Assembly: GCA_963719505.1 (NCBI GenBank)
Contig: CAVRCF010000001.1
Location: 288,001-352,000, forward strand
Length of the DNA: 64,000 bases
Source of the DNA: Halobacteriovoraceae bacterium
Lineage (GTDB): Bacteria; Bdellovibrionota; Bacteriovoracia; Bacteriovoracales; Bacteriovoracaceae
Reading direction: 5' to 3'
Below, piece after piece: positions 12,991 to 25,784 of the stretch (positions within the stretch are counted from its first letter, which is position 1; the number at the start of each line of letters is the position of its first letter). The translations under genes and the position numbers were made by a program. The notes below the pieces were generated by a model. It was not told the DNA's origin and did no database searches. It saw nothing but the letters and a program-made list of their open reading frames with translations.

Positions 12991-13029
12991 AGTTTTAAAC
13001 CTCAATTAATTTTATGGTACAATAATAAC

Positions 13030-13368
13030 ATGGATCATTATAGAAGAAAGTTTTTATTTAAGTCGTTGGTTTTATTAGTAACGCCGACGTTGGCATTTTC
13101 CAAAAAGAAAAAACCTCGCCCAATAAAAGGCTCACTTTTAGAGACTGAAAACATAGTTTCTGACTCAGGCATTTACACATTTCCGTCAAATCCTACTACC
13201 AATCAGGTGGTTCACATAAAAATTGAAAATATTCAAAACAGTAAATTTGCAAAGATTAAGTATCAAGGTGTTCCTATTCTCAACGAAAGAGAAGACTTAG
13301 AACTGGATACCCTCTCAATAGTAAAGTTTGTCTACAAAGACAAAAACCAAGGATGGGTTCTTGCATAA
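13030..13368 (+). CDS. Putative Tat-exported small protein resembling a phage tail-fibre repeat domain
   Basis: YRRKFL twin-arginine motif with a hydrophobic stretch and AFS; the mature part (TFPSNPTTNQVVHI...EDLELDT...KFVYKDKNQGWVL) resembles the TLP..P..GD...DL.LD...LVY....GW fibre repeats. Confidence 0.55.
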   Translation: MDHYRRKFLFKSLVLLVTPTLAFSKKKKPRPIKGSLLETENIVSDSGIYTFPSNPTTNQVVHIKIENIQNSKFAKIKYQGVPILNEREDLELDTLSIVKFVYKDKNQGWVLA

Positions 13369-14895
13369 TTAATTGAGATAGTTTTCTTCAATTAATTCTT
13401 TGAGACTCTTTAATTCTTCATACTGGTTTTCTAAAAGAGTAGAGAAAAATTGCTTTTCTTCTTGAGTATAGAAGTCTTGATCTTGGATAGTCTCTAAAAC
13501 CTTAGGTCGATCTATATCGTTTATAAACTCTAACGCACAAAGAAGAGTACCTCTCTCTTTCAAAAATATGAAGAGCTCCATAACGCTCTGGCATCGATTT
13601 CGAGTGTTACTTATCAAAACTCCACTTCCAAAGTTATTCTCAATAAGCACATCACAACACAGTTCAATCTTTCCCTCTTTATTCCTCTGTCCATTATCAA
13701 AGACTATTCTTATGGACTGTGCATCTCGAAATGAGTTCGCAATCAGATGATCAAAAAGAAGCATTTTTGTGAAAAACGTTGACTCATTCCTTTCAACATA
13801 AAGGTTTAATTCATCAAGAAGAATGTCCATGCTCTTTTCTTGTTTTTCAATTCTGTTTTCACTGAGATAGGCCAGAGGGTCCATCTTATAGATTCTGTCT
13901 ATCCCTCGAATATCATCCGTTAATAAAAATAAAGTCTCATTAAATTTAACCAATTCACTCTTTTGAGTTATAAGACCAAGTTGTGTGGCAATTAAACTTC
14001 CTAAATGTTGGCATTTTATATATTCAATCTTTTGAGTAAAGTCCCTAAAAGGTGTACCAATTTTTTTCAAATGATAGACTCTGTTTGAGGTAGACTCTAC
14101 GACTTGTATATAATCTGTTTCAGCATCAATAGTGTTCTTGAAAAGGGGGGGAATACGAACATAATCTTTCTCTTGTATTCTAATAACAGCTGGAAATTCA
14201 TCATGATAATTTCCAGTTATTGCTTTATGTTTTGGTAGGTTAAGTTTACAGTCCTGATAGTACTCAAGCCATAACTGCGCAAAACGAGGCTCTACCCGAT
14301 TCGTTAGACAAATTCCATTTGTGTAGTGAATACCTACAGGTGGCTCTAGTTGGTTTTGTTCGCCAACAAGATAATTCCAGTTTTTAGGAAGACATCCAAT
14401 ACTTTCAAGGCTTGGAAGCCAAACGAATTGGTGGAGATCTAAACCACTTGCTTCATTAATATATTTAGGGGTTAGACTTTTGCATTCTCCGCAGTTGAAA
14501 AGCATGAGGCTTGACCAATTTTTAAATTGATAATCTTCCTGTAAACAAGCATCTTTTTTCACTTTCTGAAGTGGGACATAGTCGTGCTTACAGACCATTA
14601 AGCTGAATTTTTCATCAGCGAAATCAAAGATTTTAGTTATATCTTGCGTGAAGATAAAGTCACAGTCGCAATAAAGACTCCAACCTTCATAATTTGACAG
14701 GTATGGGACCAAAAAGCGAGTTAATGAAAAATCCGAGGATTCATGCTTCGTCTTTGGTCTAGAATATTCAGGCAACTGTTTCTTCAAAATTGGTGTGATA
14801 GACAACGGTTCTTTTGAGTTTTGAAGAAGGCTCTGTATCAAAGCATGTAATGCTGGTGCTTCAGATTCATCATACCCTATAAAAATTTTTTTCAT
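13369..14895 (-). CDS. GT-A (GT8-like) glycosyltransferase fused to a HipA/PI3-4-kinase-like C-terminal domain
   Basis: KIFIGYD, FSLTRFLVPYL, DCD (DxD), KNWSSLMLFN, WNYLVG and HYT in the N-terminal ~225 aa; LLFDHLIANSFRD in the C-terminal half resembles HipA-like FD..I.N.DR. Confidence 0.7.
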   Translation of the reverse strand: MKKIFIGYDESEAPALHALIQSLLQNSKEPLSITPILKKQLPEYSRPKTKHESSDFSLTRFLVPYLSNYEGWSLYCDCDFIFTQDITKIFDFADEKFSLMVCKHDYVPLQKVKKDACLQEDYQFKNWSSLMLFNCGECKSLTPKYINEASGLDLHQFVWLPSLESIGCLPKNWNYLVGEQNQLEPPVGIHYTNGICLTNRVEPRFAQLWLEYYQDCKLNLPKHKAITGNYHDEFPAVIRIQEKDYVRIPPLFKNTIDAETDYIQVVESTSNRVYHLKKIGTPFRDFTQKIEYIKCQHLGSLIATQLGLITQKSELVKFNETLFLLTDDIRGIDRIYKMDPLAYLSENRIEKQEKSMDILLDELNLYVERNESTFFTKMLLFDHLIANSFRDAQSIRIVFDNGQRNKEGKIELCCDVLIENNFGSGVLISNTRNRCQSVMELFIFLKERGTLLCALEFINDIDRPKVLETIQDQDFYTQEEKQFFSTLLENQYEELKSLKELIEENYLN

Positions 14896-14908
14896 CCTTC
14901 CCTCCATC

Positions 14909-15829
14909 TCAAAGCACTGTATTGTCTATAAGATTTCGATAGCCATTACATGAATAATCAACAGATTTTACCTCCCGGTAATGCTCTGTTAAGCAGTGAC
15001 CCAAGTAATCACAATTCGAACAAAATTGATTAGAACGCACACGATTTTTTTCTTTTTCACACCAAGTTTCATAGTCTTTAAATTTATCTAACTCTAAAAA
15101 GAATTCTTTATCTGAATTATCAAATTCTAAAACTGCGAATTTTCCTCTGGGTGTAATATAAATATGATTATCAGAAAAAGAATTATTAGCTTTTTGTTTA
15201 GCCTGACGAATTAAATCTAAATTTACAAACTGAAAGTTCTTTTTTACTGGGCACTCAATCCACTTTGTGACAAATTTTTCAAATTCTAAATCGCTTACAC
15301 TGAAAGCATTGGCTTGATTAGTAGAATAAGGTTTTATTTCAACTGAGCTGATATTTCCTATGGAGTTAAAGGTTCGAATCATTTGCTCAACATCCTTTTG
15401 TATGAGCTTCTCTGAGGCCAGCATAAGAATAGATACATTTTTGTCGAGACTCAAAATATTTGAAAGAACTTTTTCGGATTTCTCCCTTGCATCAAAGTCA
15501 AACGAAACCGAGAGGCTAACATGCTTGTTTAGAAAAAATGGATTTATGATTGAGAGATTTGTAATAATATTAACGGCAGGGTCTCCAAACTCCAATAAAA
15601 TGTTATCAATTTTCTGAAGATACTCATTTTTTAACAAGGCAATTTCACCGCCGTATAGATCAACTTGTTCTATCTCATAGCCTGCACTTACAATCTCATG
15701 AAACATTCCTGAGAGTAAATTTATATCAAGCTTTTCTTTATCTGCTAGCTCGCTTGTGGTCAAGTAACAGAACTCACAACGAAAATTACACAAATAAGTA
15801 GGATTAAGAGAGACAAAAATTTTCTTCAT
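14909..15829 (-). CDS. Radical SAM enzyme #1 with a C-terminal Cys-rich auxiliary-cluster motif
   Basis: CNFRCEFC (CxxxCxxC), YGGE, and C-terminal CSNCDYLGHC...C; start taken at MKKIFVS. Confidence 0.93.
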   Translation of the reverse strand: MKKIFVSLNPTYLCNFRCEFCYLTTSELADKEKLDINLLSGMFHEIVSAGYEIEQVDLYGGEIALLKNEYLQKIDNILLEFGDPAVNIITNLSIINPFFLNKHVSLSVSFDFDAREKSEKVLSNILSLDKNVSILMLASEKLIQKDVEQMIRTFNSIGNISSVEIKPYSTNQANAFSVSDLEFEKFVTKWIECPVKKNFQFVNLDLIRQAKQKANNSFSDNHIYITPRGKFAVLEFDNSDKEFFLELDKFKDYETWCEKEKNRVRSNQFCSNCDYLGHCLTEHYREVKSVDYSCNGYRNLIDNTVL

Positions 15830-16829
15830 TACTCTCTCTTTGTGCAAGTTTTAATATTTGTGGCTCTAAGGTTTTCATAAGTGAACAGTGCTGTTCGACC
15901 ATATTGTGATTTTTGTGATCACTGATTGTCTTTTTACATCCGTTACAGATATCAAACATTGGGCAGCTTAGGCACTCATTTTTCATACTAAAAATACTTG
16001 GTTCATTTTTAAGGGGCGTGACGAGGTCTCCGCTCATTTCATTTTCAAAGTCAATAGAATACTCTTTATCGTCCCCGAAGGCGCCACAACTATAGTAGTC
16101 CCCGTCCGGTTGCAGGCACCTAATACCAGAGTCACAACTTCTATTTCTTGGACAAACTGTTTTTTTATTTTTGACTGTTTTCATTAACTCTTTACTATTG
16201 AATTCCCAATTAAATAAATTTAAATCTATAATCTCAAGGTATGTTTTATATATTTTCGAAAGTTGATAAGGTTTAGACTCTCTTCCACTAGCCATTGAGT
16301 AATTTAATTTGCACTCAATATTTAAACTCTTAGCCAGTCTTACATTATTAATGGCAAGGTGTTCATCCTCATCCGTAACAACACTTATAAAGTCAGGGTA
16401 GTAGCCAAGATAAGATTTAAATTTTTTCATAACATCGAGAAAAATTTCTTCAGTATAGATTTTTTTCTTACTAATCCTCCTCCCATTTCCGTAGTTAAAG
16501 GATGTAGCAATATTCACTCTTGGGTGACGAAAGAGATCTATCCATTTTTCAGGTTTTTTATAAAAGTCCCACAAGTTACTGGTAAAACTTATAGACGTTC
16601 TCATTTCTTTTTTATCTAAAAAATTGATAATCTTCCAATAATAGTCAGGGGAAACCATAAGCGGCTCTCCTCCGTTAACTATAATGGTATTGGTTTGCGG
16701 AAACCGATCTAAAAACTGATTTATTCTGCTTAAATCAAGTAAAGTTTTTTTGTCCTCGGCCAGCGTCGGTGAGCTACAAAAGGTGCAGGCAAAATCACAA
16801 ATGTCGGTTGGCTTTATAATTAAATCCAT
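15804..16829 (-). CDS. Radical SAM enzyme #2 with a SPASM-like domain
   Basis: IKPTDICDFACTFC, GGEPL, and CPRNRSC...YYSCG...CLSCPMFDICNGC...C. Confidence 0.95.
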   Translation of the reverse strand: MDLIIKPTDICDFACTFCSSPTLAEDKKTLLDLSRINQFLDRFPQTNTIIVNGGEPLMVSPDYYWKIINFLDKKEMRTSISFTSNLWDFYKKPEKWIDLFRHPRVNIATSFNYGNGRRISKKKIYTEEIFLDVMKKFKSYLGYYPDFISVVTDEDEHLAINNVRLAKSLNIECKLNYSMASGRESKPYQLSKIYKTYLEIIDLNLFNWEFNSKELMKTVKNKKTVCPRNRSCDSGIRCLQPDGDYYSCGAFGDDKEYSIDFENEMSGDLVTPLKNEPSIFSMKNECLSCPMFDICNGCKKTISDHKNHNMVEQHCSLMKTLEPQILKLAQRESNEENFCLS

Positions 16830-16833
16830 AGCA

Positions 16834-17451
16834 TTACTCTACTTTTATTTTAATATCAATTCCAATGGATATTCTATCAGTTCTTGACGCAAGTGGGTGA
16901 ACCCAGTGATTTAGATAGGATGGAAAGATTAATAGCATTCTCTCCTCTGGCTTTATATTTACTTTCTCCATATTCCCAAAAGGAAGAGACATCCCCATGC
17001 CGGGAACTGGATTAAGGAATTCTATGGTCCCACCTATCCCCTTTGTTTGTGGAATTTGGCAGAAATATGTACAAGTAAAAGTTGATTGGGGATGAACATG
17101 AGGCACAACATAGTCTCTATCTTTTTGTACAAGGGCCCATCCTGTCTTTTTTATCTCAGTATTATTTACCATCGAATCATCGATCACTGGGTCTTCATGA
17201 GCTGAGAATTCATCTTCCTTTGTCCAAAAAGAGTAGAGTACATTAAAGTGCTCATTAATGATTGCATTAAGTTTTTCTATACACTTTGGTGGTTTAACAA
17301 GAAGATCGTGTTTTGAGATCCAAGCTTTAGACTTATCCTTCGACTCAAGAGCCTCTTTCATCAAAAGGTACTCCTTAATCTCTTCGTTTAAATAAGCTGG
17401 CACAATCTCTTTTTCAATAAGAATAGCAGTCGGAAAAAAAGTTTTAATCAT
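16834..17451 (-). CDS. Putative Fe(II)/2-oxoglutarate oxygenase, TIGR02466-like
   Basis: FPTAI, W...PHVHP, GGTIEF.NP and LLIFPSYLNHWV.P...RISI. Confidence 0.8.
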   Translation of the reverse strand: MIKTFFPTAILIEKEIVPAYLNEEIKEYLLMKEALESKDKSKAWISKHDLLVKPPKCIEKLNAIINEHFNVLYSFWTKEDEFSAHEDPVIDDSMVNNTEIKKTGWALVQKDRDYVVPHVHPQSTFTCTYFCQIPQTKGIGGTIEFLNPVPGMGMSLPFGNMEKVNIKPEERMLLIFPSYLNHWVHPLASRTDRISIGIDIKIKVE

Positions 17452-17452
17452 C

Positions 17453-18478
17453 TCAAGTGACCTCGTTATAAAATTCTTTCAGAAAACAATCTACCGTATT
17501 CCTCTGCCTAGAGGCAAAGTCAGCTGCTACGAAGCAATACAATCCACATCGGTCTAGGTTTTCACAAGATAAGCAACCTTGTGAACTTAGGAACCGTTCA
17601 GCCATCTCACCAACTGTATCTTTATTTGGTAAACCAAGGAAACTCTTAGGGTTGTAATCTAGATACTGACAATTAGAGATAGAGTTGTCAGCAGCGATTA
17701 ATATCCTATTTTCTGAACAGCATTGAATATCATTCGTCTCGTTTTCTAAATATCCTTTTATAGGGTGAGATTCAGGATAATATTTTGCCAGATAAAGTAG
17801 GGCTTGCTTACAGTCTAAATCGCTTGGATGAAAAATATTACTATTTTTTAAGTCCGGAACATACCAATCAAAATTAACCGGAAAGTTTTCATAACAATAG
17901 TCAAAAAGGTGATCCCTTTTTTTGAGCATCGATTGAATCGATAATTTGTGAAGTGTTACAGATATTGAGGCTATATAGTCTGAAAAAATATCTAAGTTAT
18001 CTCGAAAAACAGCTTTTTGTCTTTCGTCCCAACTCCTACCTGCAAAGTCAAAAGATGTTTGCAAGGTTATATTAATTTTATGTTCTCGAAATCCATCGAG
18101 GAACGCAAGAACCCTATCTGTTTTTTCGAATATTAAATTCGATGTGAAACTAAATACAACTTTTTTATTTTCTAGTAATGAATTTATTTTAAAAACAAAT
18201 CTTTTATATTCATTGAACCAACTGTCACCATACTGGTCTTGAAAAAGCTCTCCCCCCATCAAGTTAACAGAAAAACTGTCCCAAGCGTTTCTCTTTTTTG
18301 CTATGAATCTTTCAACAAGTAGATATTTTTCATCAATCGTTACTCCTTCAACCCCTTTCATGCTGTGGTCTTGACAACAGAAAGAGCATGAAAGATTACA
18401 GTCTTCAAACAAGTGAATTTCTATCTCAATTGTACTTGAGTGTTTCTTTGATAGAATTTTATTTGTTACATATGACAT
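17453..18478 (-). CDS. Radical SAM enzyme #3, paralog of #4
   Basis: LFEDCNLSCSFCCQDH, NLMGGELF, TSFDFAGR and CLSCENLDRCGLYCF...C; start taken at MSYVTNK. Confidence 0.93.
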   Translation of the reverse strand: MSYVTNKILSKKHSSTIEIEIHLFEDCNLSCSFCCQDHSMKGVEGVTIDEKYLLVERFIAKKRNAWDSFSVNLMGGELFQDQYGDSWFNEYKRFVFKINSLLENKKVVFSFTSNLIFEKTDRVLAFLDGFREHKINITLQTSFDFAGRSWDERQKAVFRDNLDIFSDYIASISVTLHKLSIQSMLKKRDHLFDYCYENFPVNFDWYVPDLKNSNIFHPSDLDCKQALLYLAKYYPESHPIKGYLENETNDIQCCSENRILIAADNSISNCQYLDYNPKSFLGLPNKDTVGEMAERFLSSQGCLSCENLDRCGLYCFVAADFASRQRNTVDCFLKEFYNEVT

Positions 18479-18479
18479 A

Positions 18480-18998
18480 TTATTTTTCCAACTCAGGTGC
18501 AAAGAAGTCAAAGCTCAATAATCTTCTCTCCTGACTTGTCGCAACAACTCGATGTTCAAAGTTTTTCGACTGATTTAAGAGAACTAACATTTCTGGCTTT
18601 GGATAAACCTCACAAAAAGTGTCAAGACTTCTCACTTGCAAAGATCCGCCGCTATCTTTGTCCATATCATCTAAATAGAAAAGGCATGTTAAGTTAAACT
18701 TTTTGCTTTTTAAGTAATCGTTATGCCAGTTGTGTGAGTTTTGATCAATGCCTTTCCAAAGGCCAAAAGAATGGGGCTTTATATCCTTGAAATGTAATTT
18801 TAAATAGTTATCAAGTAAATAATCTTGAACTTTTTCAAGGCCAGATCTTTCAAGAGCACTTATATTTTTCTGAGAAAAACTTTCGCGTGCATTTGTAAAG
18901 ACACAACTTTTTAAATCGATCAATTGTGAAATTGAACTATCTTGAGCACAGTAGAGTCCCTCTATAATAAATTGGTTAAAATTTTCTATAAAGTTCAT
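18480..18998 (-). CDS. Fe(II)/2-oxoglutarate oxygenase, prolyl-hydroxylase-like
   Basis: WHND (HxD), LFYLDD...GGSL and FEHRV...RRLLSF. Confidence 0.85.
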   Translation of the reverse strand: MNFIENFNQFIIEGLYCAQDSSISQLIDLKSCVFTNARESFSQKNISALERSGLEKVQDYLLDNYLKLHFKDIKPHSFGLWKGIDQNSHNWHNDYLKSKKFNLTCLFYLDDMDKDSGGSLQVRSLDTFCEVYPKPEMLVLLNQSKNFEHRVVATSQERRLLSFDFFAPELEK

Positions 18999-19020
18999 AA
19001 ATCCGCATCAATCCTTTTAC

Positions 19021-19048
19021 TTGTAAATGCTGTTATCTTGCCTATAAT
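19021..19048 (+). promoter_or_regulatory. Putative sigma-70 promoter for the Cys-His repeat gene
   Basis: TTGTAA-N16-TATAAT in the divergent intergenic region. Confidence 0.45.
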
Positions 19049-19097
19049 AATAGTATTAACCAGTTCTTAATGTAAATAAAAGTAAGGAATGAACCAT

Positions 19098-19646
19098 ATG
19101 CCAGCTCCTACGAAAGCTTATATCATTAGTCGCTTCAACTCAGTGGTAGCTTCACTACCTTCACGTAACAACGCAACCTATCATGCAGGAAACTTTCCCA
19201 ATATCGCACAACGGACAAGACTTGGAGCTTTTCCACTTGGCTCGAGAACAGAGCCAAATAAAACTGTTGCTGATATAGGTGTTACTGGAATGATGGCGAC
19301 AAATATATTTGAAATACTACACAACCTTGCGATGGAACTAACACGCGTCAGAAAAGCGAGGAATGTGCACTTAGTTGACAACAGATCTGACAATGGGGCT
19401 GTTCATGCAGTTGTAGGCTCACCCACACTAACGGCTCTACATCCAAGGCATGCTCAGTACTTTGACTTTCCAGGAAGTCATAAAAACGTCGGAGACCAAA
19501 TAAATCTTTCAGAAATTGAATCTTTTCTAAGTAGTCTTAGAACACGAGTACAGTACATAAGAAGCAGTGATGATCATTTATTTGAAATCGTCTCTTGCCA
19601 CTCAAGTTGTCACTCTAGTTGCCACGGTTCAAGAGCGAGAAGGTAG
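19098..19646 (+). CDS. Candidate modified substrate/precursor protein with a C-terminal triple Cys-His repeat (SCHSSCHSSCHGSRARR)
   Basis: Repeat encoded at 19593-19643; these are the only three Cys in the protein. AGGA at 19085-19088 favours the ATG at 19098. It is the first gene of the rightward operon in the middle of the radical SAM cluster. Confidence 0.7.
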   Translation: MPAPTKAYIISRFNSVVASLPSRNNATYHAGNFPNIAQRTRLGAFPLGSRTEPNKTVADIGVTGMMATNIFEILHNLAMELTRVRKARNVHLVDNRSDNGAVHAVVGSPTLTALHPRHAQYFDFPGSHKNVGDQINLSEIESFLSSLRTRVQYIRSSDDHLFEIVSCHSSCHSSCHGSRARR

Positions 19647-19649
19647 AAA

Positions 19650-20378
19650 ATGCAAATGACTCACACAACAGCACCTTTATCAATGGAGCTTGTAAAAGAA
19701 CAATTTGAAAACAAAGAAATGACTTTTGTTATCAACTACAAAGAAAGTGAGCTTCAAGGAAAAAACCTTCTTGTCTATATTTCAAATCTTGAGCTCAATT
19801 GTGAAATTGATTTTCATTCGTGCTCTTTTGACAAAAGAGAAGAACTTATAAAAGAGTTTCTAAATGTTAATTGTATCAATAATATTAATTCACTTCGCCT
19901 CAATGCGGCTCATATTATTTTAGAGTTTATGGGTGTTGATTTCTCTGAAGAGATTCTCAACCCAGCTTTCTCAAAAAGTGAGATTCAAATTTTTATAAAA
20001 AATAATAAAGAAACTCTAGAAAAATGGAAAACATTTCTCCAATCAACTATGGTTTATAACCTTACATCTGTTAGTGCCGTTAATGAGGAATACAAGTTCG
20101 ATCAGATTTTCGAGACAGTTGATGACCCTTTTTATATCGGAAGAAATGTCGTCACACTCCTCTCTATTCCGACTTTTATGGAAAGGGTATACTCGATACC
20201 AGTGGAACAGGAGCTTTTTTATTTCAAGCAACAGTTTGAGGAGTGTATGTTTAAAGGCGAAAGTCTCTTTTATTATTTTTGTAACGAAGCAAACACTCCC
20301 TTTCTCATCTACAATATGCTCTTGACGGGTGATATGAGCATAGAAGAGCTTGAAGCAATTAAAACCCTAAAAGGCTAA
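19650..20378 (+). CDS. Hypothetical protein of the radical SAM cluster
   Basis: 242-aa ORF 3 nt after the Cys-His repeat gene; no recognisable motif. Confidence 0.75.
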   Translation: MQMTHTTAPLSMELVKEQFENKEMTFVINYKESELQGKNLLVYISNLELNCEIDFHSCSFDKREELIKEFLNVNCINNINSLRLNAAHIILEFMGVDFSEEILNPAFSKSEIQIFIKNNKETLEKWKTFLQSTMVYNLTSVSAVNEEYKFDQIFETVDDPFYIGRNVVTLLSIPTFMERVYSIPVEQELFYFKQQFEECMFKGESLFYYFCNEANTPFLIYNMLLTGDMSIEELEAIKTLKG

Positions 20379-20379
20379 A

Positions 20380-21474
20380 ATGTTCAATCTTTTTAACGGT
20401 ATCTATCTAGATCTGGCAGATCGGTTTACATCTAAATACGACTACCTAACTGTTTCGACGACCAAAACCTTTCACCCCGCTGCAAAATACATAGAACAAG
20501 ACTTTGGTGAATCTCCCGCTTTTGATGACTATCTTGAAGAGAATTTTGATGCAGATGAAGATCGCTTTTGGCAATCACTTATAAACAAAGAAAAAAAGAA
20601 AAGCTTTGTCATCTATACTGACAGTGAGCTCTACCACCGGCTTCAACTTACCTTTTTTAAGAATATCTTTCCAAAAAGTGAAATAGATCAACTGCATAGA
20701 CTCTACAATTTCTATGTTTACAACGAACATATTCGCTCTAAGTTACAAGAAAAAAGAGGGGGAGAAAACCTAAGAGTCGATACGAAACACCTTCCTCACT
20801 ATACAGAAGAGGAATTTGAGCAGAAGTTGAAACAGCTTCCGAAACATAAATCTCTCTACTCCATGGATAAAGCATCACTTTGTTTTGAATTTTTGTTCTT
20901 ACAATATGTCATAGAAAGAGACTGCGTTTATTCTGCATATTTTTTAAAAAGAGTAAAAGACTTGTCTTGGAAAAATTGGTTCGAAGAAATTGGAGAGATC
21001 AGAACAGAAATCATTAACGGATTCTATCAACTCGACAAGATTTTAGATGATTCAAAGTTTAGTCTCGATGAAAACCTAGACTCTTTTCTTGCTAAAAATA
21101 ATCTAGAATGGATCTCTGACCTGAATCTTTACGGAGTTAACCCCGATTACTTCAAAAGAACATACAAGCCCGATGACTTTCTTAAGATTATCAATGCAAA
21201 AGATAAAATTGAATTTTCTTCAGATCAAGACTTCTCGGATCGCCTCACTAATAACTTCAAGACGAAAATGGAATACCTTTTCAGCGAGCGCTATGAAGAT
21301 CTTCTTTTGCTAGATGTGAAAGATTCTATTGGATGCTCCTTTACCAAAGGACAAATGCAAGCCAAAGTTAACACCTTACTTTTAAGTTACTTGTATTCAG
21401 TGGTCGATGGAAGGAATAGTTTTTTTGGTGAGACTCTCACTCTATCTGAAACAAAGTTGAGTCAAGATGAGTAA
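20380..21474 (+). CDS. Hypothetical protein of the radical SAM cluster
   Basis: 364-aa ORF tightly coupled to both neighbours; no recognisable motif. Confidence 0.75.
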   Translation: MFNLFNGIYLDLADRFTSKYDYLTVSTTKTFHPAAKYIEQDFGESPAFDDYLEENFDADEDRFWQSLINKEKKKSFVIYTDSELYHRLQLTFFKNIFPKSEIDQLHRLYNFYVYNEHIRSKLQEKRGGENLRVDTKHLPHYTEEEFEQKLKQLPKHKSLYSMDKASLCFEFLFLQYVIERDCVYSAYFLKRVKDLSWKNWFEEIGEIRTEIINGFYQLDKILDDSKFSLDENLDSFLAKNNLEWISDLNLYGVNPDYFKRTYKPDDFLKIINAKDKIEFSSDQDFSDRLTNNFKTKMEYLFSERYEDLLLLDVKDSIGCSFTKGQMQAKVNTLLLSYLYSVVDGRNSFFGETLTLSETKLSQDE

Positions 21475-22471
21475 TCCTGTTATCCTACAAAAAAAATCTG
21501 GAGATGGTGAGCTATTCGTCAATCTTTTTGAATGGTGCAACTTGAATTGCGATTTTTGTTGGCAGGATCATAATGACTGGAGTGGAATTGAAACCATTGT
21601 AGAAAGAAGCGTTGATATATTAAGCGCTATACGCAGTAGCAAAGAACCTCATTTTATTGTTAACCTTATGGGCGGCGAGCTTTTTGCCGATAAAATCCCA
21701 GATCAAACAATTTATGATTATTACAATATGGTTGAGGCTGTCTTCACGCAGTTGCCACCGAAAAAAACTATTGAAGTAAACTGGGTCACGAACCTTGTCT
21801 TCACAAAACTAGAAAGACTACAAGAGCTAGTCAATAAAACTCGAGCACTTGGCATTCAAAGCCGTATAACCACCAGCTTTGATTTTACTGGTAGATTTAG
21901 AAAAGCTTCGCGTCTTCTTTTTGAAAATAATATTAGAAAACTTGGATCAGAGGTGGGGACTATTTCCGTTGTCCTTACAAAACCTAATATAGAGAAGATG
22001 ATAAAAAACGATGATTCTTTATTCAAGGAACTTTACGCCCAAGGATTCTATTTTTATTTTGATTACTACTCACCAGAGAATAATTTCAAAGAGATGCTTC
22101 CCACCGATACACAACTTCAAGAGGGCTTATTATTTCTTCTTAGAAACTATCCAAATGTGAATCCCATTCAATCTTGGATTAAAAATGAATCAAACCCCAT
22201 GAGTTGTCAGTCCTCTATCGTCATAGACAAAGATGGTGTTAAAGGCAAATGTAAATCACTCGTTCCAGAAAGCATTAAAGTTGTATTAAAAAGTGAAAGT
22301 CACGACAATACCAATGCTGTTATGGAAGATCGTTTTAGTAACAAATACGACTGCATTAGTTGTGAATTCTACAAACGCTGTGGCATGGGATGTTTTTTGC
22401 AGCATGACTTCGATGGTTTTGAAACTCTTAGTGAATGTCTTTATAAAGAAATTTTTAGGAATATAACTTAA
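21467..22471 (+). CDS. Radical SAM enzyme #4, paralog of #3
   Basis: LFEWCNLNCDFCWQDH, NLMGGELF, TSFDFTGR and CISCEFYKRCGMGCF...C. Confidence 0.93.
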   Translation: MSNPVILQKKSGDGELFVNLFEWCNLNCDFCWQDHNDWSGIETIVERSVDILSAIRSSKEPHFIVNLMGGELFADKIPDQTIYDYYNMVEAVFTQLPPKKTIEVNWVTNLVFTKLERLQELVNKTRALGIQSRITTSFDFTGRFRKASRLLFENNIRKLGSEVGTISVVLTKPNIEKMIKNDDSLFKELYAQGFYFYFDYYSPENNFKEMLPTDTQLQEGLLFLLRNYPNVNPIQSWIKNESNPMSCQSSIVIDKDGVKGKCKSLVPESIKVVLKSESHDNTNAVMEDRFSNKYDCISCEFYKRCGMGCFLQHDFDGFETLSECLYKEIFRNIT

Positions 22472-23073
22472 TGTTTAATAAAGAGGCCGTCGAAATTCAA
22501 TATAACTCAAATGGCACCGTCGAAGAATCCTTTCGAACTCGTTCAAAAGTTGGAGAAGAGCTCTTAACACAGGCTCTAGCTCGCTGCTGTCAATTCGCGA
22601 TAGATAAAAAAGAAATAGAACTTATCTCCTATGCACCAAATGATGATTTGTCCGTCAAAGACCAAGCAATAGCACTCGTTTTTAACTCCGCAATTAGACA
22701 GAGTTCCCACCTAAGTGACTACCACGTCATAAAAGTAATGAATAATAATGAGAGTGTCTTAAAATGCTATGACAATGATTTTTGGAGACACCCAAACATA
22801 CCTCTACCAGTAAACGCCAGGCTTGCCCAACAGTTCGGCATTGGATTTTATCCTGATAACGAGGAGATTGACATCTATGACATGTACTTTTTTCATCACT
22901 CCCTTGAGGCGGTAGAAGATCACTTTAACCTTAATCTTAACCTACCAGATTTTGTTAAGGCTTATGGCTTCGGCCTCTATGGTGTTAGTTACAACTCAAA
23001 TTTAGAGGCTTTAAAATTGAAGAGATATTTTTACCCAAGTGACCCGCAGCTCAATAATCCTCAAGACCTATAG
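22471..23073 (+). CDS. Hypothetical protein of the radical SAM cluster
   Basis: 200-aa ORF with a TAATG stop/start overlap with radical SAM #4. Confidence 0.7.
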   Translation: MFNKEAVEIQYNSNGTVEESFRTRSKVGEELLTQALARCCQFAIDKKEIELISYAPNDDLSVKDQAIALVFNSAIRQSSHLSDYHVIKVMNNNESVLKCYDNDFWRHPNIPLPVNARLAQQFGIGFYPDNEEIDIYDMYFFHHSLEAVEDHFNLNLNLPDFVKAYGFGLYGVSYNSNLEALKLKRYFYPSDPQLNNPQDL

Positions 23074-23673
23074 CAATCGAACTCCGACACTAAGTGTATA
23101 TCGATCTTTTTCAAAAGAATGAAAAGGTGTAGTTTTATGTTGAATATTCGATTTGCTTAAGTCCATCACGATAACATCAAAGTCAGCTGGAAGAAAACTA
23201 ACCTCTAGTCCTGTTGATTTGTCTCTAAAGGAAATGATGCCACCATCCTTTTTTTCGAGTGCAATTGGAATATGATAAATTAAAATCGTAAAGTCATCAG
23301 TAAATCTATCCCTACCATCGTTATCTGAATGCCACTCATTTCCAGCAGAACCATTCCAAACAGTTACACCCGATATTGTGTATCTTTTTAGGCCTATAAA
23401 TGTTGACGCATGTTTCTTTAAAAATTCCTCTACCCACCCTATAAAAGATGCATCTAGGTTTTTATCCTGAATAGAATCTAAGTCTGATTTATCCATTAGC
23501 GCTGCTAACTCAAAAGTTGATACAGGCACAGACTTCAGGTTAAACAAAGGAGATGATATCCACACGGAGGGATTAAAGAGTCCCCTAAATTTGCCTCTAT
23601 CCTCCAAGGGTAACCTGTAACGTGAATGTGCTAAATTTTTTACATCTTCAATAAGTTCCATCTTGTTTCCCAT
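23068..23673 (-). CDS. Fe(II)/2-oxoglutarate oxygenase
   Basis: WHSD (HxD), ILIY...DGGIISF and IQHKTTP...RYTLS; start shortened to MGNKMEL to avoid overlap with the divergent gene. Confidence 0.8.
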   Translation of the reverse strand: MGNKMELIEDVKNLAHSRYRLPLEDRGKFRGLFNPSVWISSPLFNLKSVPVSTFELAALMDKSDLDSIQDKNLDASFIGWVEEFLKKHASTFIGLKRYTISGVTVWNGSAGNEWHSDNDGRDRFTDDFTILIYHIPIALEKKDGGIISFRDKSTGLEVSFLPADFDVIVMDLSKSNIQHKTTPFHSFEKDRYTLSVGVRLL

Positions 23674-23729
23674 GTGTCCTATTATTGCATGAATTAGGGA
23701 ATATTGATATATTCTAAAAAAAGAGGGAT

Positions 23730-24806
23730 ATGCGCTTAGCCAAAGATATACAAATTTATTTAAAAACAACTGAGACCTGTAATCTTAACTGTAGTCATTG
23801 TTTCACAAGTGGAAGCAAAGGAAAAAAGATTTTCTTTAACCCCATAAAAACAGCGTCCTTTATTAAAAGTTTAAATAAGTCTGAGAATCTAAATTCGATG
23901 AGGATACTCTTTCATGGGGGAGAGCCTCTTTTAGCTCCAATAAAAGATCTTTATAATTTCTACGAAGAACTTCAAGACATCAAAAATATATCATTTGGTA
24001 TTCAAACAAACTTAGTATACAAGCTTAATCCCAAGAGGTTAAATTTTTTTAAAGATGTTTTAAAGCTAGAGGGGATTGGAACTTCATGGGATCCCAATAT
24101 TCGTTTTGGTTCAAATGGGTTAACAACAAAGGAACATGACCTTCACCTTTGGGAAACAAATATTAAAACTCTGGTAGATCTGGGTGCAGAAATAACCCTA
24201 ATGGTATCTCTATCAAGAGACGTAGTTGAATATTATGAGCCCAAGCAAATAATTGATTATGCTATTGAGCTTGGAATAAAGTATATACTTTTTGAAAGAA
24301 TAACGTTCGATGGGAATTCACAGGATAATGAAAATGTTCTTCCTTCCAACAAGAATTTAGACTTATGGATGCTTACTATGTACAAGCAAACACTAGAAGA
24401 TGATCGATTCTTAAAAATTGGAAATATGTTCCTAGACGAAATTGCTAGAAGCTATCTTCACGGAAACCACGTAGCGAATAGATGTAGAGGGTGTGAGCAA
24501 AAACTTATCACCATCAACGCCGATGGCACCCTCTCTGGTTGCCCCAACTCTGCCCCAACAAGTATTTGGGGTAGAATAGAAAAAGACCCAACCACCTTTA
24601 TTGCTTCACCTAAACGCACAGAGGCAATATGCAAAGAACAAATACGAAATTCCGTTTGCCTTACTTGTGAAGTAAATGACTTATGCAATGGCGACTGTTA
24701 CAAATTAAAATGGGATAAAGATATTTGTTCAGCTCCAAAAAGCTTATTTCAATTTCTCAAGACAACCGAAGGCTCTAAAAATTGCTCTAAGGTTCTCCTA
24801 ATATGA
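23730..24806 (+). CDS. Radical SAM enzyme #5 with a SPASM domain
   Basis: LKTTETCNLNCSHC, FHGGEPLL, QTN, and C..C...INADGTLSGC...CLTCEVNDLCNGDC...C. Confidence 0.95.
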   Translation: MRLAKDIQIYLKTTETCNLNCSHCFTSGSKGKKIFFNPIKTASFIKSLNKSENLNSMRILFHGGEPLLAPIKDLYNFYEELQDIKNISFGIQTNLVYKLNPKRLNFFKDVLKLEGIGTSWDPNIRFGSNGLTTKEHDLHLWETNIKTLVDLGAEITLMVSLSRDVVEYYEPKQIIDYAIELGIKYILFERITFDGNSQDNENVLPSNKNLDLWMLTMYKQTLEDDRFLKIGNMFLDEIARSYLHGNHVANRCRGCEQKLITINADGTLSGCPNSAPTSIWGRIEKDPTTFIASPKRTEAICKEQIRNSVCLTCEVNDLCNGDCYKLKWDKDICSAPKSLFQFLKTTEGSKNCSKVLLI

Positions 24807-25255
24807 AAGAGTGGAAGTTAAGACAACAAATTTTTTCTCGTATTTTTTCAGATAAAAACCTAGGGGATAATCTCGACGAACAAGTTATCATTGAAGAGTT
24901 TGACCAGGAATCTATTCTTAAAAGAGCTTTAGAATATCCTTTTTCGAACAATGCGATTTGCCACTATCCAGGCAAGTCTTTTGCTATTGCTATTATCTTT
25001 TCTCTTTTGCTAGAAAAGCACTTCGGCGATTCTAGATTTAGCTATCTCTCAGACCCTAACCTTTTTATGGGAGAGGACCCTTACTTCATACCCTATACTG
25101 ATAGTAGGGATCTTTACGATAAGATCCTGGAAAGTTTTCCGGTAGAGTCGATAGATAGACCTGAGTCTTATGGACAAGACTTCCAAAAGACAGTGAATTA
25201 TTTTATGATGGAGTACTTGTTTCATGATGACACAAAAATGTTCGCCCCTTCTTAG
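24803..25255 (+). CDS. Hypothetical protein of the radical SAM cluster
   Basis: 150 aa; ATGA overlap with radical SAM #5. Confidence 0.7.
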   Translation: MKEWKLRQQIFSRIFSDKNLGDNLDEQVIIEEFDQESILKRALEYPFSNNAICHYPGKSFAIAIIFSLLLEKHFGDSRFSYLSDPNLFMGEDPYFIPYTDSRDLYDKILESFPVESIDRPESYGQDFQKTVNYFMMEYLFHDDTKMFAPS

Positions 25256-25784
25256 TCCTAACCTCATTGATCAAATATTTTCTGATTCATGGCTCTATTC
25301 TGTTAATAGTTTTTTTATAATTGAGCCTCAGACAGGTTCTTATGATGAAAGGTTATTGAATGATAAAACTATGGTAGAGCAGGCTCAGCTGATCAAAGCA
25401 CAGTTTCTCTTAGGCTCAACGATAATAGTTAAAAACATCGAATCTTTTACTACCGAATTGAAGCGAAAATGTGAAGTCCTCGGCAAGGGGTCTATGGTTG
25501 ATGCACATATGTATTTGAATAAATTTAAAGAGTCTCTGTCTTTTGATTTCCACACTGACGAGACCGACGTTATCATCCACTTGGCTTATGGATTCAAAAA
25601 AATTGAAATTATCAAAGATGACATTGTTTCAACCCATACTCTTGCAGCTGGGGATGAATTATTCATTCCTAAAGGCTTAAAACACCGAGCGATTAATCTA
25701 GCACCATCTTGCTCTTTTAGTTTCGGTATCAAGGAAGATTCATTTTTTATTCCGGGAGGAATCACAAAGGATGACTTTTTTTAG
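25224..25784 (+). CDS. Cupin/JmjC-like oxygenase
   Basis: AHMY...SFDFHTDETDVII....GFK and LAAGDELFIPKGLKHRA, giving an HxD...H facial triad as in Cupin_4/ROX-type proteins. Confidence 0.8.
   Translation: MMTQKCSPLLSPNLIDQIFSDSWLYSVNSFFIIEPQTGSYDERLLNDKTMVEQAQLIKAQFLLGSTIIVKNIESFTTELKRKCEVLGKGSMVDAHMYLNKFKESLSFDFHTDETDVIIHLAYGFKKIEIIKDDIVSTHTLAAGDELFIPKGLKHRAINLAPSCSFSFGIKEDSFFIPGGITKDDFF

What the first reader, a model, noticed from the sequence alone, without database searches (positions are those of the whole stretch)
13369..25784. Five radical SAM enzymes and four oxygenases clustered around a protein with a triple Cys-His tail: a candidate new protein-modification system
Seen in sequence: about 12.4 kb of tightly packed genes encode five CxxxCxxC radical SAM enzymes, all with C-terminal Cys clusters (14909, 15804, 17453, 21467, 23730). 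They also encode three 2OG-Fe(II)-type oxygenases (16834, 18480, 23068), a cupin/JmjC protein (25224), a glycosyltransferase fusion (13369) and four unknown proteins. Two divergent operons start at the gene for a 182-aa protein ending SCHSSCHSSCHGSRARR. Established: radical SAM-SPASM/twitch enzymes crosslink Cys and His in ribosomal peptides (sactipeptides, ranthipeptides, cyclophanes), and 2OG/JmjC oxygenases hydroxylate residues including His. Inference: the cluster heavily modifies the Cys-His tail. It fits no RiPP class I can name, because it has no visible leader peptidase, ABC exporter or stand-alone PqqD/RRE, and the substrate is protein-sized. The product may be a modified protein, such as a fibre tip or metal-binding module, rather than a released peptide.
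Basis: partly seen in the sequence, partly recalled or inferred. Interest (0 to 1): 0.95.

Follow-up and report, generated by a model that had tools for sequence, protein, structure and literature searches.

The report
Radical-SAM kit for Cys-His-tailed fibre-module protein
A predatory-type bacterium carries, beside its only phage-like fibre gene, a phage-derived set of radical-SAM and iron-oxygenase enzymes that most likely rebuild the invariant Cys-His tail of one small protein, a kind of protein finishing that no paper I could search describes.

Summary
Window 13369-25784 has 15 tightly packed genes: five CxxxCxxC radical-SAM enzymes, three 2OG-type oxygenases (one weak), a JmjC cupin, a weak GT8-like fusion and four unknowns. 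They form two divergent operons around a 182-aa protein ending CHSSCHSSCHGSRARR.

This scan met the same cassette at least 15 times before on phage DNA; this is a chromosomal copy. The tail family has 845 representative clusters. It lies with the same enzymes in IMG/VR contigs, cultured jumbo phages and Bdellovibrionota genomes. In 401 genomes of the phylum, 17 have the tail protein, 18 the key enzyme and 16 both.

Here the cassette is a roughly 14.6-kb island missing from the three same-genus genomes. It abuts the genome's only S74 fibre gene and a Peptidase_G2-like gene. In phages it follows tail-fibre-like genes.

Best reading (0.55): the enzymes covalently modify the (CHxS)3 tail of a protein that stays protein-sized and works with fibres. 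The chemistry is untested. The closest known system is HXS, but this is not a member.

The parts
11159..11761 (-). Stand-alone Peptidase_G2 (intramolecular-chaperone)-like protein, 200 aa. Residues about 57-199 are conserved; the N-terminus varies.
   Evidence: Atlas scores 0.94-0.96 to viral clusters, one of them 69% PF11962. Weak hit to the phi29 pre-neck appendage protein, E 0.019. Single copy in this genome. On the same contig, 3-16 kb from the tail gene, in 10 of 10 cassette genomes checked. No Pfam or PHROG hit.
11764..13005 (-). Fibre protein, 413 aa: pilin-like hydrophobic N-terminus and C-terminal Peptidase_S74 chaperone/protease domain with SDRRLK.
   Evidence: PF13884 at 51.9 bits. 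Tail-fibre PHROGs. The only S74 gene in the 3.69-Mb genome. Homologues beside the cassette in other bacteria carry the N_methyl prepilin motif, 3 of 9 above cut-off.
13030..13368 (+). Small protein, 112 aa, with an RR-containing signal-like N-terminus.
   Evidence: ORFs of like size, start and end lie beside the G2-like gene in L169-L172 and L177. This was judged by eye on N- and C-termini only. No Pfam hit.
13369..14907 (-). 512-aa protein: weak GT8-like N-terminal half and unknown C-terminal half.
   Evidence: PF01501 at 17 bits, below its cut-off. phrog_28018. Homologues in 3 of 68 loci, all bacterial.
14909..15847 (-). Radical SAM enzyme g02 with a C-terminal Cys cluster.
   Evidence: CxxxCxxC. 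Weak hit to the viperin model, 41.5 bits against a cut-off of 180. Present in 36 of 68 loci.
15804..16829 (-). Radical SAM/SPASM-like enzyme g03, part of the minimal core.
   Evidence: PF04055 at 39 bits. SPASM model at 26.4 bits. Present in 44 of 44 type-A and 7 of 7 type-B loci with room on both sides. 55-63% identical across phages and bacteria.
16834..17451 (-). 2OG-Fe(II) oxygenase g04.
   Evidence: PF13759 at 56.9 bits.
17453..18511 (-). Radical SAM enzyme g05, paralogue of g10.
   Evidence: CxxxCxxC and C-terminal Cys cluster. Present in 41 of 68 loci.
18480..18998 (-). 2OG-Fe(II) oxygenase g06.
   Evidence: PF13640 at 31.8 bits. Present in 22 of 68 loci.
19098..19646 (+). Cys-His-tailed protein, 182 aa: folded alpha/beta body (residues 1-166) and disordered tail.
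   Evidence: AlphaFold pLDDT 87.2, pTM 0.82, tail pLDDT about 50. No solved fold matched. The family has 845 representatives. phrog_35144.
19596..19643 (+). The tail CHSSCHSSCHGSRARR, proposed site of modification.
   Evidence: Translation. All three Cys and all three His are invariant in 73 of 73 aligned sequences.
19650..20378 (+). Unknown protein g08, part of the minimal core.
   Evidence: phrog_20767, E 7e-58. Present in 61 of 68 loci. Model pLDDT 93, no known fold.
20380..21474 (+). Unknown protein g09.
   Evidence: phrog_36207. Present in 14 of 68 loci by tblastn. ORFs with a g09-like start follow g08 in type-B phages.
21467..22471 (+). Radical SAM enzyme g10.
   Evidence: CxxxCxxC. SPASM model at 20.8 bits. 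Present in 43 of 68 loci.
22471..23073 (+). Unknown protein g11.
   Evidence: No family found. Homologues in L002 and L069 and in L178.
23068..23769 (-). 2OG-oxygenase-like protein g12, on the opposite strand to its neighbours.
   Evidence: BLASTP to g06, E 4e-4. Present in 0 of 68 loci. One weak homologue in L178.
23730..24806 (+). Radical SAM/SPASM enzyme g13, the most constant enzyme of the cassette.
   Evidence: SPASM model at 29.9 bits against a cut-off of 27; sulfatase-maturase model at 71 bits against 349. Present in 65 of 68 loci. It directly precedes the tail gene in phages.
24803..25255 (+). Unknown protein g14.
   Evidence: phrog_20737, E 2e-27. Present in 31 of 68 loci.
25224..25784 (+). 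JmjC-type cupin oxygenase g15.
   Evidence: PF08007 at 32.3 bits against a cut-off of 22. Present in 36 of 68 loci.

Best explanation
This is a chromosomal copy of a phage-borne protein-maturation cassette.

Substrate (inferred). The 182-aa protein has a folded body of unrecognised fold and a flexible C-terminal tail, (Cys-His-x-Ser)x3-Gly-Ser-Arg-x-Arg-Arg. That tail is the proposed substrate.

Chemistry (inferred). Two core radical SAM/SPASM enzymes, g13 and g03, would install covalent changes on the Cys and His-x-Ser units. By analogy with their nearest relatives these would be thioether or carbon-carbon cross-links. Two unknown proteins, g08 and g09, would help. The extra radical SAM enzymes (g02, g05/g10), the JmjC cupin, g14 and the 2OG oxygenases would add further steps, such as hydroxylation of His or Arg. 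These extra enzymes occur only where the tail carries the RxRR extension.

Fate and role (inferred). The product is not cut off and exported. It stays a protein and works with receptor-binding fibres. In phages it would act as a late, probably particle-associated protein encoded behind the tail-fibre genes. Here it would act with the pilin-headed S74 fibre and the G2-chaperone-like protein that came in on the same island.

Shown: gene content, co-occurrence, invariance of the tail, the fibre neighbourhood and the island status.
For: 1. Forward co-occurrence. Among the 68 loci found through the tail motif, the window's enzymes recur: g13 in 65, g08 in 61, g03 in 46, g10 in 43, g05 in 41, g02 in 36, JmjC in 36 and g14 in 31. 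Many loci are cut by contig ends. With at least 7 kb on both sides, the 44 type-A loci hold g13 in 44, g03 in 44, g05/g10 in 44 and g08 in 43.

2. Reverse co-occurrence. Of the 80 best IMG/VR loci found through g13, 42 hold a strict (CHxx)3 tail within 8 kb. Four more hold variant tails. Of the 38 loci without a strict tail I searched 5 whole records; 3 have tandem tail genes further off, and the other 2 are 16% and 32% complete.

3. In 401 genomes of the phylum, the tail family is in 17, g13 in 18 and both in 16.

4. All Cys and His of the tail are invariant in 73 of 73 sequences, while the bodies fall to about 20% identity.

5. The same tail ends bodies of 130, 533 and 541 aa, one of them unrelated to the others.

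6. The tail is predicted to be disordered on a confident body.

7. g13's nearest solved relatives are peptide-modifying enzymes: 8vpo, ChlB 9gm3 and CteB 5wgg. Its best NCBIfam partial hits are peptide or protein maturases.

8. Fibre link. The genome's single S74 gene abuts the cassette. S74 fibres lie next to the cassette in L002, L004, L006, L170, L176, L177 and L178. In 9 of 9 sampled phage loci the ORF just upstream carries phrog_22593, and in 8 of 9 also phrog_19602 'tail fiber protein'.

9. The cassette sits among virion and baseplate genes in two cultured jumbo phages.

10. Tail type tracks enzyme set.
Against: - No mass, cross-link or binding has been measured for any member.
- Four of the five radical SAM genes here are below Pfam's cut-off, and none reaches any curated NCBIfam family.
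- 38 of 80 g13 loci lack a strict tail within 8 kb. I searched only 5 of those records whole.
- Two bacterial genomes have g13 and partner enzymes but no tail protein: G347 and G164.
- The protein has no signal peptide, so how it would meet an exported pilin-like fibre in a bacterium is unexplained.
- Virion association rests on one paper's statement about a gene cluster (PMC6102473, section 29). Its per-protein table was not viewable, and the paper's gene numbers may be shifted by one against RefSeq.
- The seven type-B loci form one phage clade, so the match between tail type and enzyme set is a single evolutionary event.
- The G2-like gene also occurs in 8 genomes without this cassette.
Confidence: 0.55

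Rival explanations
1. Released peptide or cofactor. The folded body is only a large leader. The 16-residue tail is processed into a small fixed product, such as a metal-binding or redox cofactor in the manner of PQQ or mycofactocin, and is cut off by a protease encoded elsewhere.
For: An invariant core on divergent 'leaders' is typical of cofactor-type ribosomal products (my recall). Many tailoring enzymes serve one short core. Tandem duplicated precursor genes occur in some phages and bacteria.
Against: No peptidase, exporter or RRE/PqqD was found in the 15 genes. The body is confidently folded and conserved as a domain. The tail also sits on bodies of 533 and 541 aa. The cassette lies in late fibre modules of lytic phages, where a diffusible cofactor has no obvious use.
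Confidence: 0.15
2. The enzymes act on something else, such as a sugar, nucleotide or fibre glycan. The Cys-His tail only binds a metal or an iron-sulfur cluster, making the protein a scaffold or donor for the enzymes or a metal-dependent structural part.
For: Cys-His repeats are good metal ligands (general chemistry). The bacterial versions carry a GT8-like gene. g02's best partial hit is the viperin model.
Against: The GT-like gene is in only 3 of 68 loci. The minimal cassette has no sugar enzyme that I could recognise. g13 overlaps or abuts the tail gene in phages. SPASM-type partial hits point to peptide substrates. A plain metal site would not need strict invariance together with two to five radical SAM enzymes.
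Confidence: 0.15
3. An HXS-like barrier. The matured protein blocks incoming DNA, serving as superinfection exclusion in phages and as defence in the bacterium, as the radical-SAM-matured HxS-repeat effector HxsA does.
For: There are three His-x-Ser units beside basic residues. Radical SAM maturation of a protein-sized effector is known for HXS (PMC13128918, sections 9 and 10 read). g03 hits the HxsC model over its N-terminal core at 37.5 bits.
Against: No NCBIfam Hxs model is reached. The protein has no peptidoglycan-binding domain and no signal peptide (the sequence). Serine at the fourth position is not invariant: 74, 84 and 92 of 102 in the three repeats. The gene lies in late structural modules next to fibres. 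The padloc library was not searched.
Confidence: 0.05

Closest known systems
HXS antiphage system (HxsA/B/C/D; Li et al., Nat Commun 2026, PMC13128918; abstract and sections 9 and 10 read)
   Same: A protein-sized substrate with His-x-Ser repeats is matured by dedicated radical SAM enzymes, helped by a small or unknown partner protein. There is no leader peptidase or exporter of the RiPP type.
   Different: HxsA has five HxS repeats, a peptidoglycan-binding domain and N-terminal processing, and acts in the periplasm. HXS has two radical SAM enzymes and lies almost entirely in Pseudomonadota. The present system has a C-terminal (CHxS)3 with invariant Cys, two to five radical SAM enzymes plus oxygenases, a body of unrecognised fold, and a phage or fibre context. 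No Hxs model is matched.
SPASM/twitch radical SAM peptide maturases (sactipeptide, ranthipeptide and three-residue cyclophane formers such as CteB, PapB, YhhB, FxsB, AmcB, ChlB)
   Same: CxxxCxxC plus C-terminal auxiliary Cys clusters. The best partial hits of g13 and g03 are to these families. Their known targets are Cys and aromatic-x-x motifs (recalled).
   Different: Scores are 40-70 bits against curated cut-offs of 300-650, so these are not members. No RRE was found. The substrate is a folded protein, and several such enzymes act on one 16-residue tail together with oxygenases.
Anaerobic sulfatase maturase (anSME, TIGR03942)
   Same: It gives the top NCBIfam partial hit of g13 (71 bits). 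It is a SPASM enzyme that oxidises a Cys or Ser of a folded protein rather than of a leader peptide (recalled).
   Different: The cut-off of 349 bits is not reached. There is no sulfatase, and no C/S-x-P/A-x-R motif (motif recalled).
JmjC ribosomal oxygenases (YcfD, NO66, MINA53; PF08007) - function recalled, not checked in a paper here
   Same: g15 passes PF08007's cut-off. That family hydroxylates His or Arg side chains of proteins (recalled), and the tail offers both.
   Different: Only the C-terminal 40 residues of g15 align to the model. g15 is absent from the minimal cassette.
MAT fibre adhesins of Bdellovibrio (Caulton et al. 2024, PMC10769870; passages read)
   Same: These are phage-like trimeric fibres with a self-cleaving S74 chaperone (SDxxxK) in a predatory bacterium. 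The neighbouring gene 11764-13005 has the same domain and motif.
   Different: MATs are about 1000 aa, with a signal peptide and a conserved beta-rich domain. The fibre here is 413 aa with a prepilin-like head. The paper's text never uses the word 'pilin' and, in the passages I read, mentions no radical SAM cassette.

Membership tests
HXS system | HxsA-type effector recognised by the NCBIfam model | tested here: not met
   The tail protein matches 0 NCBIfam families at E <= 0.01.
HXS system | HxsB and HxsC equivalog radical SAM enzymes | tested here: not met
   g03 scores 37.5 bits and g02 15.3 bits against HxsC's cut-off of 267.9. HxsB is not listed for any gene, though the lists for g03 and g13 show only the best 25 families.
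HXS system | Tandem His-Xaa-Ser repeats in the substrate | tested here: met
   Three H-x-S units lie inside (CHxS)3. Ser at that position is found in 74, 84 and 92 of 102 tails for the three repeats.
HXS system | Peptidoglycan-binding domain and export of the effector | tested here: not met
   No Pfam domain on the protein. No signal peptide is visible in MPAPTKAYIISRF... (by eye).
Radical SAM / SPASM superfamily | CxxxCxxC cluster motif | tested here: met
   Seen in all 5 translations. Pfam PF04055 is above its cut-off in 1 of 5.
Radical SAM / SPASM superfamily | SPASM auxiliary-cluster domain (TIGR04085, cut-off 27) | tested here: inconclusive
   g13 scores 29.9 (met), g03 26.4 and g10 20.8. 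The model is not listed for g02 or g05.
Classical RiPP pathway | Leader peptidase, exporter, or RRE/PqqD domain | tested here: not met
   None found among the 15 genes with Pfam or NCBIfam. Remote RRE folds in g08, g09 and g14 were not excluded: g08 has no clear fold match, and g09 and g14 were not folded.
CXXX-repeat peptide maturase system (TIGR04115) | Equivalog maturase | tested here: not met
   g05 scores 18.1 bits against a cut-off of 350.
Three-residue cyclophane formers (YhhB, FxsB, AmcB models) | Equivalog score | tested here: not met
   g13 scores 51.3, 43.7 and 44.7 bits against cut-offs of 445, 370 and 425.
2OG-Fe(II) and JmjC oxygenases | Pfam domain above cut-off | tested here: met
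   g04 56.9, g06 31.8 and g15 32.3 bits. g12 is assigned only through its similarity to g06.
Prophage | Integrase, capsid, tail or terminase genes, or attachment repeats around the cassette | tested here: not met
   The flanks encode serine dehydratase, ETF, acyl-CoA dehydrogenase, Mrp/NUBPL, SLT, YchF, Pth and Prs. There are no flanking direct repeats at the borders.
MAT fibre family | S74 domain with SDxxxK | tested here: met
   PF13884 at 51.9 bits. SDRRLK is in the translation.
MAT fibre family | Conserved beta-rich domain of about 130 aa after a signal peptide | not tested
   No MAT sequence was compared. The protein here is 413 aa, against about 1000 aa for MATs.

The most novel reading that the evidence does not exclude
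The enzymes weld the three Cys-His units into a covalently cross-linked, metal-holding centre. This would be a cofactor built after translation on a protein that sits on receptor-binding fibres, giving phage fibres and the pilin-headed fibres of predatory bacteria a catalytic or metal-dependent way of gripping or breaching the prey envelope. It would be the first radical-SAM-made modification of a virion or adhesin protein, and a device shared by viruses and bacterial predators.
Probability: 0.2. Interest if true: 0.92.

Novelty: new variant of a known kind. Interest (0 to 1): 0.78.

Why it matters
Radical SAM maturation is known for small peptides and for a few proteins, such as sulfatases and HxsA. 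It is not known for phage particle or fibre proteins. This cassette takes up roughly a fifth to a quarter of the recovered length of some 35-45-kb phage contigs whose completeness is unknown. Its tail family has 845 representative clusters, and it has been kept by predatory bacteria next to their fibre genes, so it must pay its way.

Working out the chemistry could reveal new cross-links or a new protein-derived cofactor. It could also explain an unknown step in how phages and bacterial predators recognise or enter cells.

The bacterial copy matters in practice. It shows that the cassette works outside a virion, and it offers a complete gene set of about 12 kb from a harmless organism for expression.

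Tried and rejected
- **Complex prediction.** Tail protein with g08: 'no answer', score 0.01 against a mark of 0.32. This says nothing either way.
- **Sequencing runs.** None was listed for window 16000-25784, and no RNA holder was listed.
- **Fold of the tail protein's body.** Foldseek PDB gave nothing at E <= 0.001. VIA wide gave a best Z of 3.8. BFVD returned only the protein's own family.
- **Fold of g08.** Foldseek PDB gave nothing at E <= 0.001; several of the weak rows are enzymes I recognise as TIM barrels (my reading of the titles, a lead only). VIA wide gave a best Z of 4.2 over residues 1-58 only. The Atlas gave 0.83, which is uninformative.
- **Solved-structure sequence searches.** Nothing useful for the GT-like protein, g09, g14 or the g08 profile.
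- **tblastn of the tail protein against the phage collection.** No match. The cassette is nevertheless there, found through g13 and by reading ORFs. The tool's low-complexity filter and the divergence of the bodies are the likely reasons.
- **The G2-like protein in IMG/VR.** A single-protein scan found no relative.
- **Attachment-site repeats at the island borders.** None was convincing.
- **Prophage reading.** Rejected.
- **Literature.**
  - The motif strings CHSSCH, SCHSSCH, CHSSCHSSCH and CHSSCHGS returned only unrelated text.
  - 'radical SAM / jumbo phage / RSL2' and 'radical SAM / phage / RiPP / cupin / 2OG' returned papers that merely list the genes: PMC8066314 and PMC11898562, passages read.
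  - Iyer et al. 2010 (PMC2938197, passages read) describes cyanophage dioxygenase arrays but not this cassette.
- **Gene tree.** The careful tree search did not finish. Only the quick tree is reported.
- **padloc library.** Not searched.

Full report
**What is in the window**

Between 13369 and 25784 lie 15 ORFs with gaps or overlaps of a few bases. They form a leftward operon (18998 down to 13369) and a rightward operon (19098 to 25784). One gene, 23068-23769, lies on the opposite strand inside the rightward operon.

Five proteins show CxxxCxxC and C-terminal Cys clusters. Only 15804 passes Pfam's Radical_SAM cut-off. The other four score 19.6-28.6 bits against 29.5. The SPASM domain model is passed by 23730 (29.9 against 27). 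It is narrowly missed by 15804 (26.4) and missed by 21467 (20.8). No gene reaches the curated cut-off of any NCBIfam family. The best partial hits are to peptide and protein maturases: the sulfatase maturase (71 bits against 349), PapB, DarE, YhhB and DynA.

Two 2OG oxygenases and a JmjC cupin pass Pfam. The third '2OG' gene, 23068, is supported only by a 26% alignment to 18480 (E 4e-4). The 'glycosyltransferase fusion' is weak (17 bits against 24.3).

The central protein starts at 19098, 182 aa. It ends CHSSCHSSCHGSRARR, encoded at 19596-19643.

**The tail protein is a family, and the tail is its fixed part**

A word-indexed search found 20 relatives. A full profile search of 1.84 billion representatives found 845 at E <= 0.001, 602 at <= 1e-10 and 125 at <= 1e-30.

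In a 73-sequence alignment the three Cys, the three His and one Gly are invariant, while the bodies fall to about 20% identity.

I collected 102 distinct tails from all fetched loci.
- Ser fills the fourth position of the three repeats in 74, 84 and 92 of 102. Asn is the usual alternative.
- 83 of 102 end in R-x-R-R (type A). Two of these carry a fourth CHxS repeat before it.
- 19 of 102 end in a single Leu or Ile after CHGS (type B).

AlphaFold gives a confident alpha/beta body (pLDDT 87.2, pTM 0.82) and a disordered tail. The body matches no solved structure: Foldseek found none at E <= 0.001 and VIA wide gave a best Z of 3.8. Among predicted viral structures it matches only its own family, including a 296-aa protein of Agrobacterium phage Atu_ph07.

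The same tail also ends proteins of about 130 aa in tandem pairs. It ends a 533-aa protein with a long Gly/Thr/Ser/Asn-rich insert, and a 541-aa protein with an unrelated body. The tail therefore behaves as a portable module on proteins, not as the core of one leader.

**Do the enzymes travel with it?**

*Forward test.* A scan for the tail motif gave 9 loci in species-representative genomes and 59 in IMG/VR. The 9 genome loci comprise 7 whose record titles name Bdellovibrionota lineages, one titled Flavobacteriaceae and one titled only 'bacterium'. tblastn of the window's proteins against these 68 loci found:
- g13 (23730) in 65
- g08 (19650) in 61
- g03 (15804) in 46
- g10 in 43
- g05 in 41
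- g02 in 36
- the JmjC cupin in 36
- g14 in 31
- g06 in 22
- g09 in 14
- the GT-like gene in 3
- g12 in 0.

Many loci end at contig ends, so these are lower bounds.

*Reverse test.* A scan with a g13 profile found 391 IMG/VR stretches, of which the best 80 were kept.
- 42 of the 80 hold a strict (CHxx)3 tail within 8 kb, a median of 573 bases after g13.
- I looked at 28 of the 38 others. Four have variant tails right after g13, such as CHSSCHSSHSSRNRR. Most of the rest have g03 there instead.
- I searched 5 of the 38 whole records with the tail profile. Three hold two tandem tail genes about 10 kb away. The two without are 16% and 32% complete.

*In bacteria.* In a sample of 401 genomes of the window's phylum, the tail family is in 17 and g13 (E <= 1e-30) in 18, with both in 16. 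The exceptions are G103 (a 53-aa frame with a stop), G347 (a partial cassette without a tail) and G164 (g13 fused in a 641-aa ORF, no tail within 20 kb).

**Cultured phages carry it**

g13 homologues at 36-43% identity occur in 15 phage records: Atu_ph07, Sinorhizobium phage Phosso, the RSL2/RSF1/FLC group, Burkholderia phage SURPRISE13 and pPa_SNUABM_DT01.

In SURPRISE13 the gene order is cupin, g13, a 186-aa protein ending CHSSCHTSCHGSRGRR, a g09-like protein, a g08-like protein and then further radical SAM and 2OG genes. This block follows a 'virion structural protein' gene, and a baseplate gene lies about 5 kb upstream.

The papers on these phages only list the genes (PMC8066314 and PMC11898562, passages read).

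For Atu_ph07, the text says most virion proteins found by mass spectrometry lie in clusters that include 'CDS 170-215' (PMC6102473, section 29). RefSeq gp170 is the tail homologue. I could not see the per-protein table S5, and the paper's numbering may be shifted by one against RefSeq. This is a hint only.

**Minimal core, and a match between tail and enzymes**

I compared loci that have at least 7 kb on both sides of the tail gene.

| Gene | Type-A loci (n = 44) | Type-B loci (n = 7) |
|---|---|---|
| g13 | 44 | 7 |
| g03 | 44 | 7 |
| g08 | 43 | 7 |
| g05/g10 | 44 | 0 |
| g02 | 39 | 0 |
| JmjC cupin | 30 | 0 |
| g14 | 27 | 0 |
| g06 | 19 | 0 |

Reading one type-B locus shows this order: fibre-like gene, g13, tail gene, g08, two ORFs with g09-like starts, g03, three unknowns, S74 fibre.

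The core is therefore the tail protein plus g13, g03, g08 and probably g09. The extra enzymes go with the RxRR extension. The seven type-B loci are one tight phage clade, so this counts as one event.

**Fibre neighbourhood**

*In phages.* In 9 of 9 sampled loci the ORF just upstream of the cassette (366-1086 aa) ends in the same domain of about 120 aa, phrog_22593. In 8 of 9 it also matches phrog_19602, 'tail fiber protein'. Further upstream, 13 of 16 loci have an ORF of 1592-2188 aa.

*In this genome.* The gene next to the left operon, 11764-13005, has a Peptidase_S74 chaperone domain (51.9 bits) with the catalytic SDRRLK motif. It is the only S74 gene in 3.69 Mb.

*In other bacteria.* Nine cassette-adjacent fibres all pass S74. 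Three pass the prepilin N_methyl motif and two more fall just below it. These are short fibres with pilin heads. They differ from the roughly 1000-aa MAT fibres of Bdellovibrio (PMC10769870, passages read).

*The G2-like gene.* The next gene, 11159-11761, resembles the Peptidase_G2 intramolecular chaperone of phage appendages (Atlas 0.94-0.96; phi29 gp12 E 0.019).
- It is single-copy here.
- It lies on the same contig, 3-16 kb from the tail gene, in 10 of 10 cassette genomes checked.
- It occurs in 22 of 401 genomes, and 14 of those carry the cassette.

**Island status**

The flanks are housekeeping genes. Serine dehydratase and the Mrp/NUBPL gene are 16.7 kb apart here. In the three same-genus genomes they are 2.4, about 1.8 and 6 kb apart, and none of the three holds the tail protein. 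There is no integrase and no border repeat.

In a quick maximum-likelihood tree of g13, rooted by a paralogue, the six bacterial copies form one group (SH-aLRT 90). That group lies inside a 14-row clade (97) with type-B phages and Atu_ph07. The careful search did not finish, and the direction of transfer is not shown.

**How it most likely works**

*Shown.* The genes, their co-inheritance, the invariance and flexibility of the tail, and the fibre context.

*Inferred.* g13 and g03 act on the tail. Their nearest solved relatives are peptide cross-linkers: 8vpo, ChlB and CteB at 33-37 bits. Thioether links from Cys, or carbon-carbon links on His-x-Ser, are the natural guesses. The JmjC cupin belongs to the Pfam family of protein His/Arg hydroxylases (function recalled), and it appears only with RxRR tails. 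g08 folds confidently (pLDDT 93) but matches nothing known, so its role as a helper is a guess.

I put 0.55 on 'tail modified, product stays a protein and serves fibres'. I put 0.15 on a released peptide or cofactor, 0.15 on a metal or cluster scaffold with the enzymes acting elsewhere, and 0.05 on an HXS-like DNA barrier.

**Comparison and novelty**

The closest characterised system is HXS, in which two radical SAM enzymes and HxsD mature the HxS-repeat effector HxsA, adding +8 Da on SHRSS (PMC13128918, sections 9 and 10). The present system works like it in outline but fails its membership tests.

This scan has already reported the cassette at least 15 times on phage DNA. What this window adds:
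- the bacterial island and its borders;
- the sole-S74, pilin-headed fibre and the G2-like partner;
- phylum-wide co-occurrence counts;
- the minimal core;
- the match between tail type and enzyme set.

None of my searches found a paper that describes the motif or the cassette's function.

Noticed in passing
window 11764-13005 (-); also L170:14956-16143, L177:17506-18543, L004:18137-19183: These are short fibres (320-413 aa) that join a type IV prepilin-like N-terminus to a phage S74 self-cleaving chaperone. N_methyl PF07963 is above its cut-off in 3 of 9. They may be phage-type fibre tips mounted as minor pilins in predatory bacteria. The window's copy has Gln where pilins have Glu5 and gives no N_methyl hit.
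   Followed up: partly
L169:9768-20000, L171:1-10145, L172:1-10268: In cassette-less relatives the G2-like gene abuts a different cluster. It has two radical SAM genes, a 169-187-aa Cys/His-rich protein (starting MACSGGHC..., ending ...CNCHNNCGCHY) and further ORFs with TGTCN-type starts. Four radical SAM proteins pass Pfam in L169. This may be a second, unrelated radical SAM system for a Cys/His-rich protein.
   Followed up: partly
window 11159-11761 (-): Only residues about 57-199 of the G2-like protein are conserved between genomes; the first 56 or so vary. If the chaperone part cuts itself off as in phi29 gp12, the variable N-terminal piece would be the mature product.
   Followed up: no
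window 13030-13368 (+): This 112-aa ORF has an RR-containing signal-like start and ends ...GWVLA. ORFs of like size and ends lie beside the G2-like gene in other genomes (L169-L172, L177), so it is probably a real gene. This was judged by eye only.
   Followed up: partly
window 23068-23769 (-): A 2OG-like gene sits in reverse orientation between g11 and g13, overlapping both. It is absent from 68 of 68 related loci by tblastn, with one weak homologue in L178. It looks like a late insertion into the operon.
   Followed up: partly
L180:9624-11549 (-): One bacterial variant has g13 fused behind an N-terminal extension of about 290 aa. The 20 kb fetched holds no (CHxx)3 protein, although g08, g10, g05, g03 and g02 homologues are present.
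   Followed up: partly
L002 (record titled Flavobacteriaceae MAG): Its cassette is fully syntenic with the window's, with the proteins between the GT-like gene and the JmjC cupin 29-63% identical. Its g13 groups with the Bdellovibrionota copies. Whether this reflects a binning label or a real transfer was not resolved.
   Followed up: no
window 6668-7039 and 7426-8169 (+): The two electron-transfer-flavoprotein ORFs are short (123 and 247 aa) and match only the later part of the Pfam ETF domain, with unassigned gaps before each. The cause could be start-codon calling, frameshifts or decay.
   Followed up: no
P0023 (533 aa) and P0024 (541 aa): Two long metagenomic proteins end in the same 16-residue tail. 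One has a Gly/Thr/Ser/Asn-rich insert that looks like a fibre or beta-helix; the other has an unrelated body. Neither has a Pfam domain.
   Followed up: partly
window 27646-28800 (-): The Mrp/NUBPL iron-sulfur carrier ATPase about 2 kb downstream of the cassette's last gene is native. It holds the same position relative to sdaA in same-genus genomes that lack the cassette, so it is not part of the island.
   Followed up: yes
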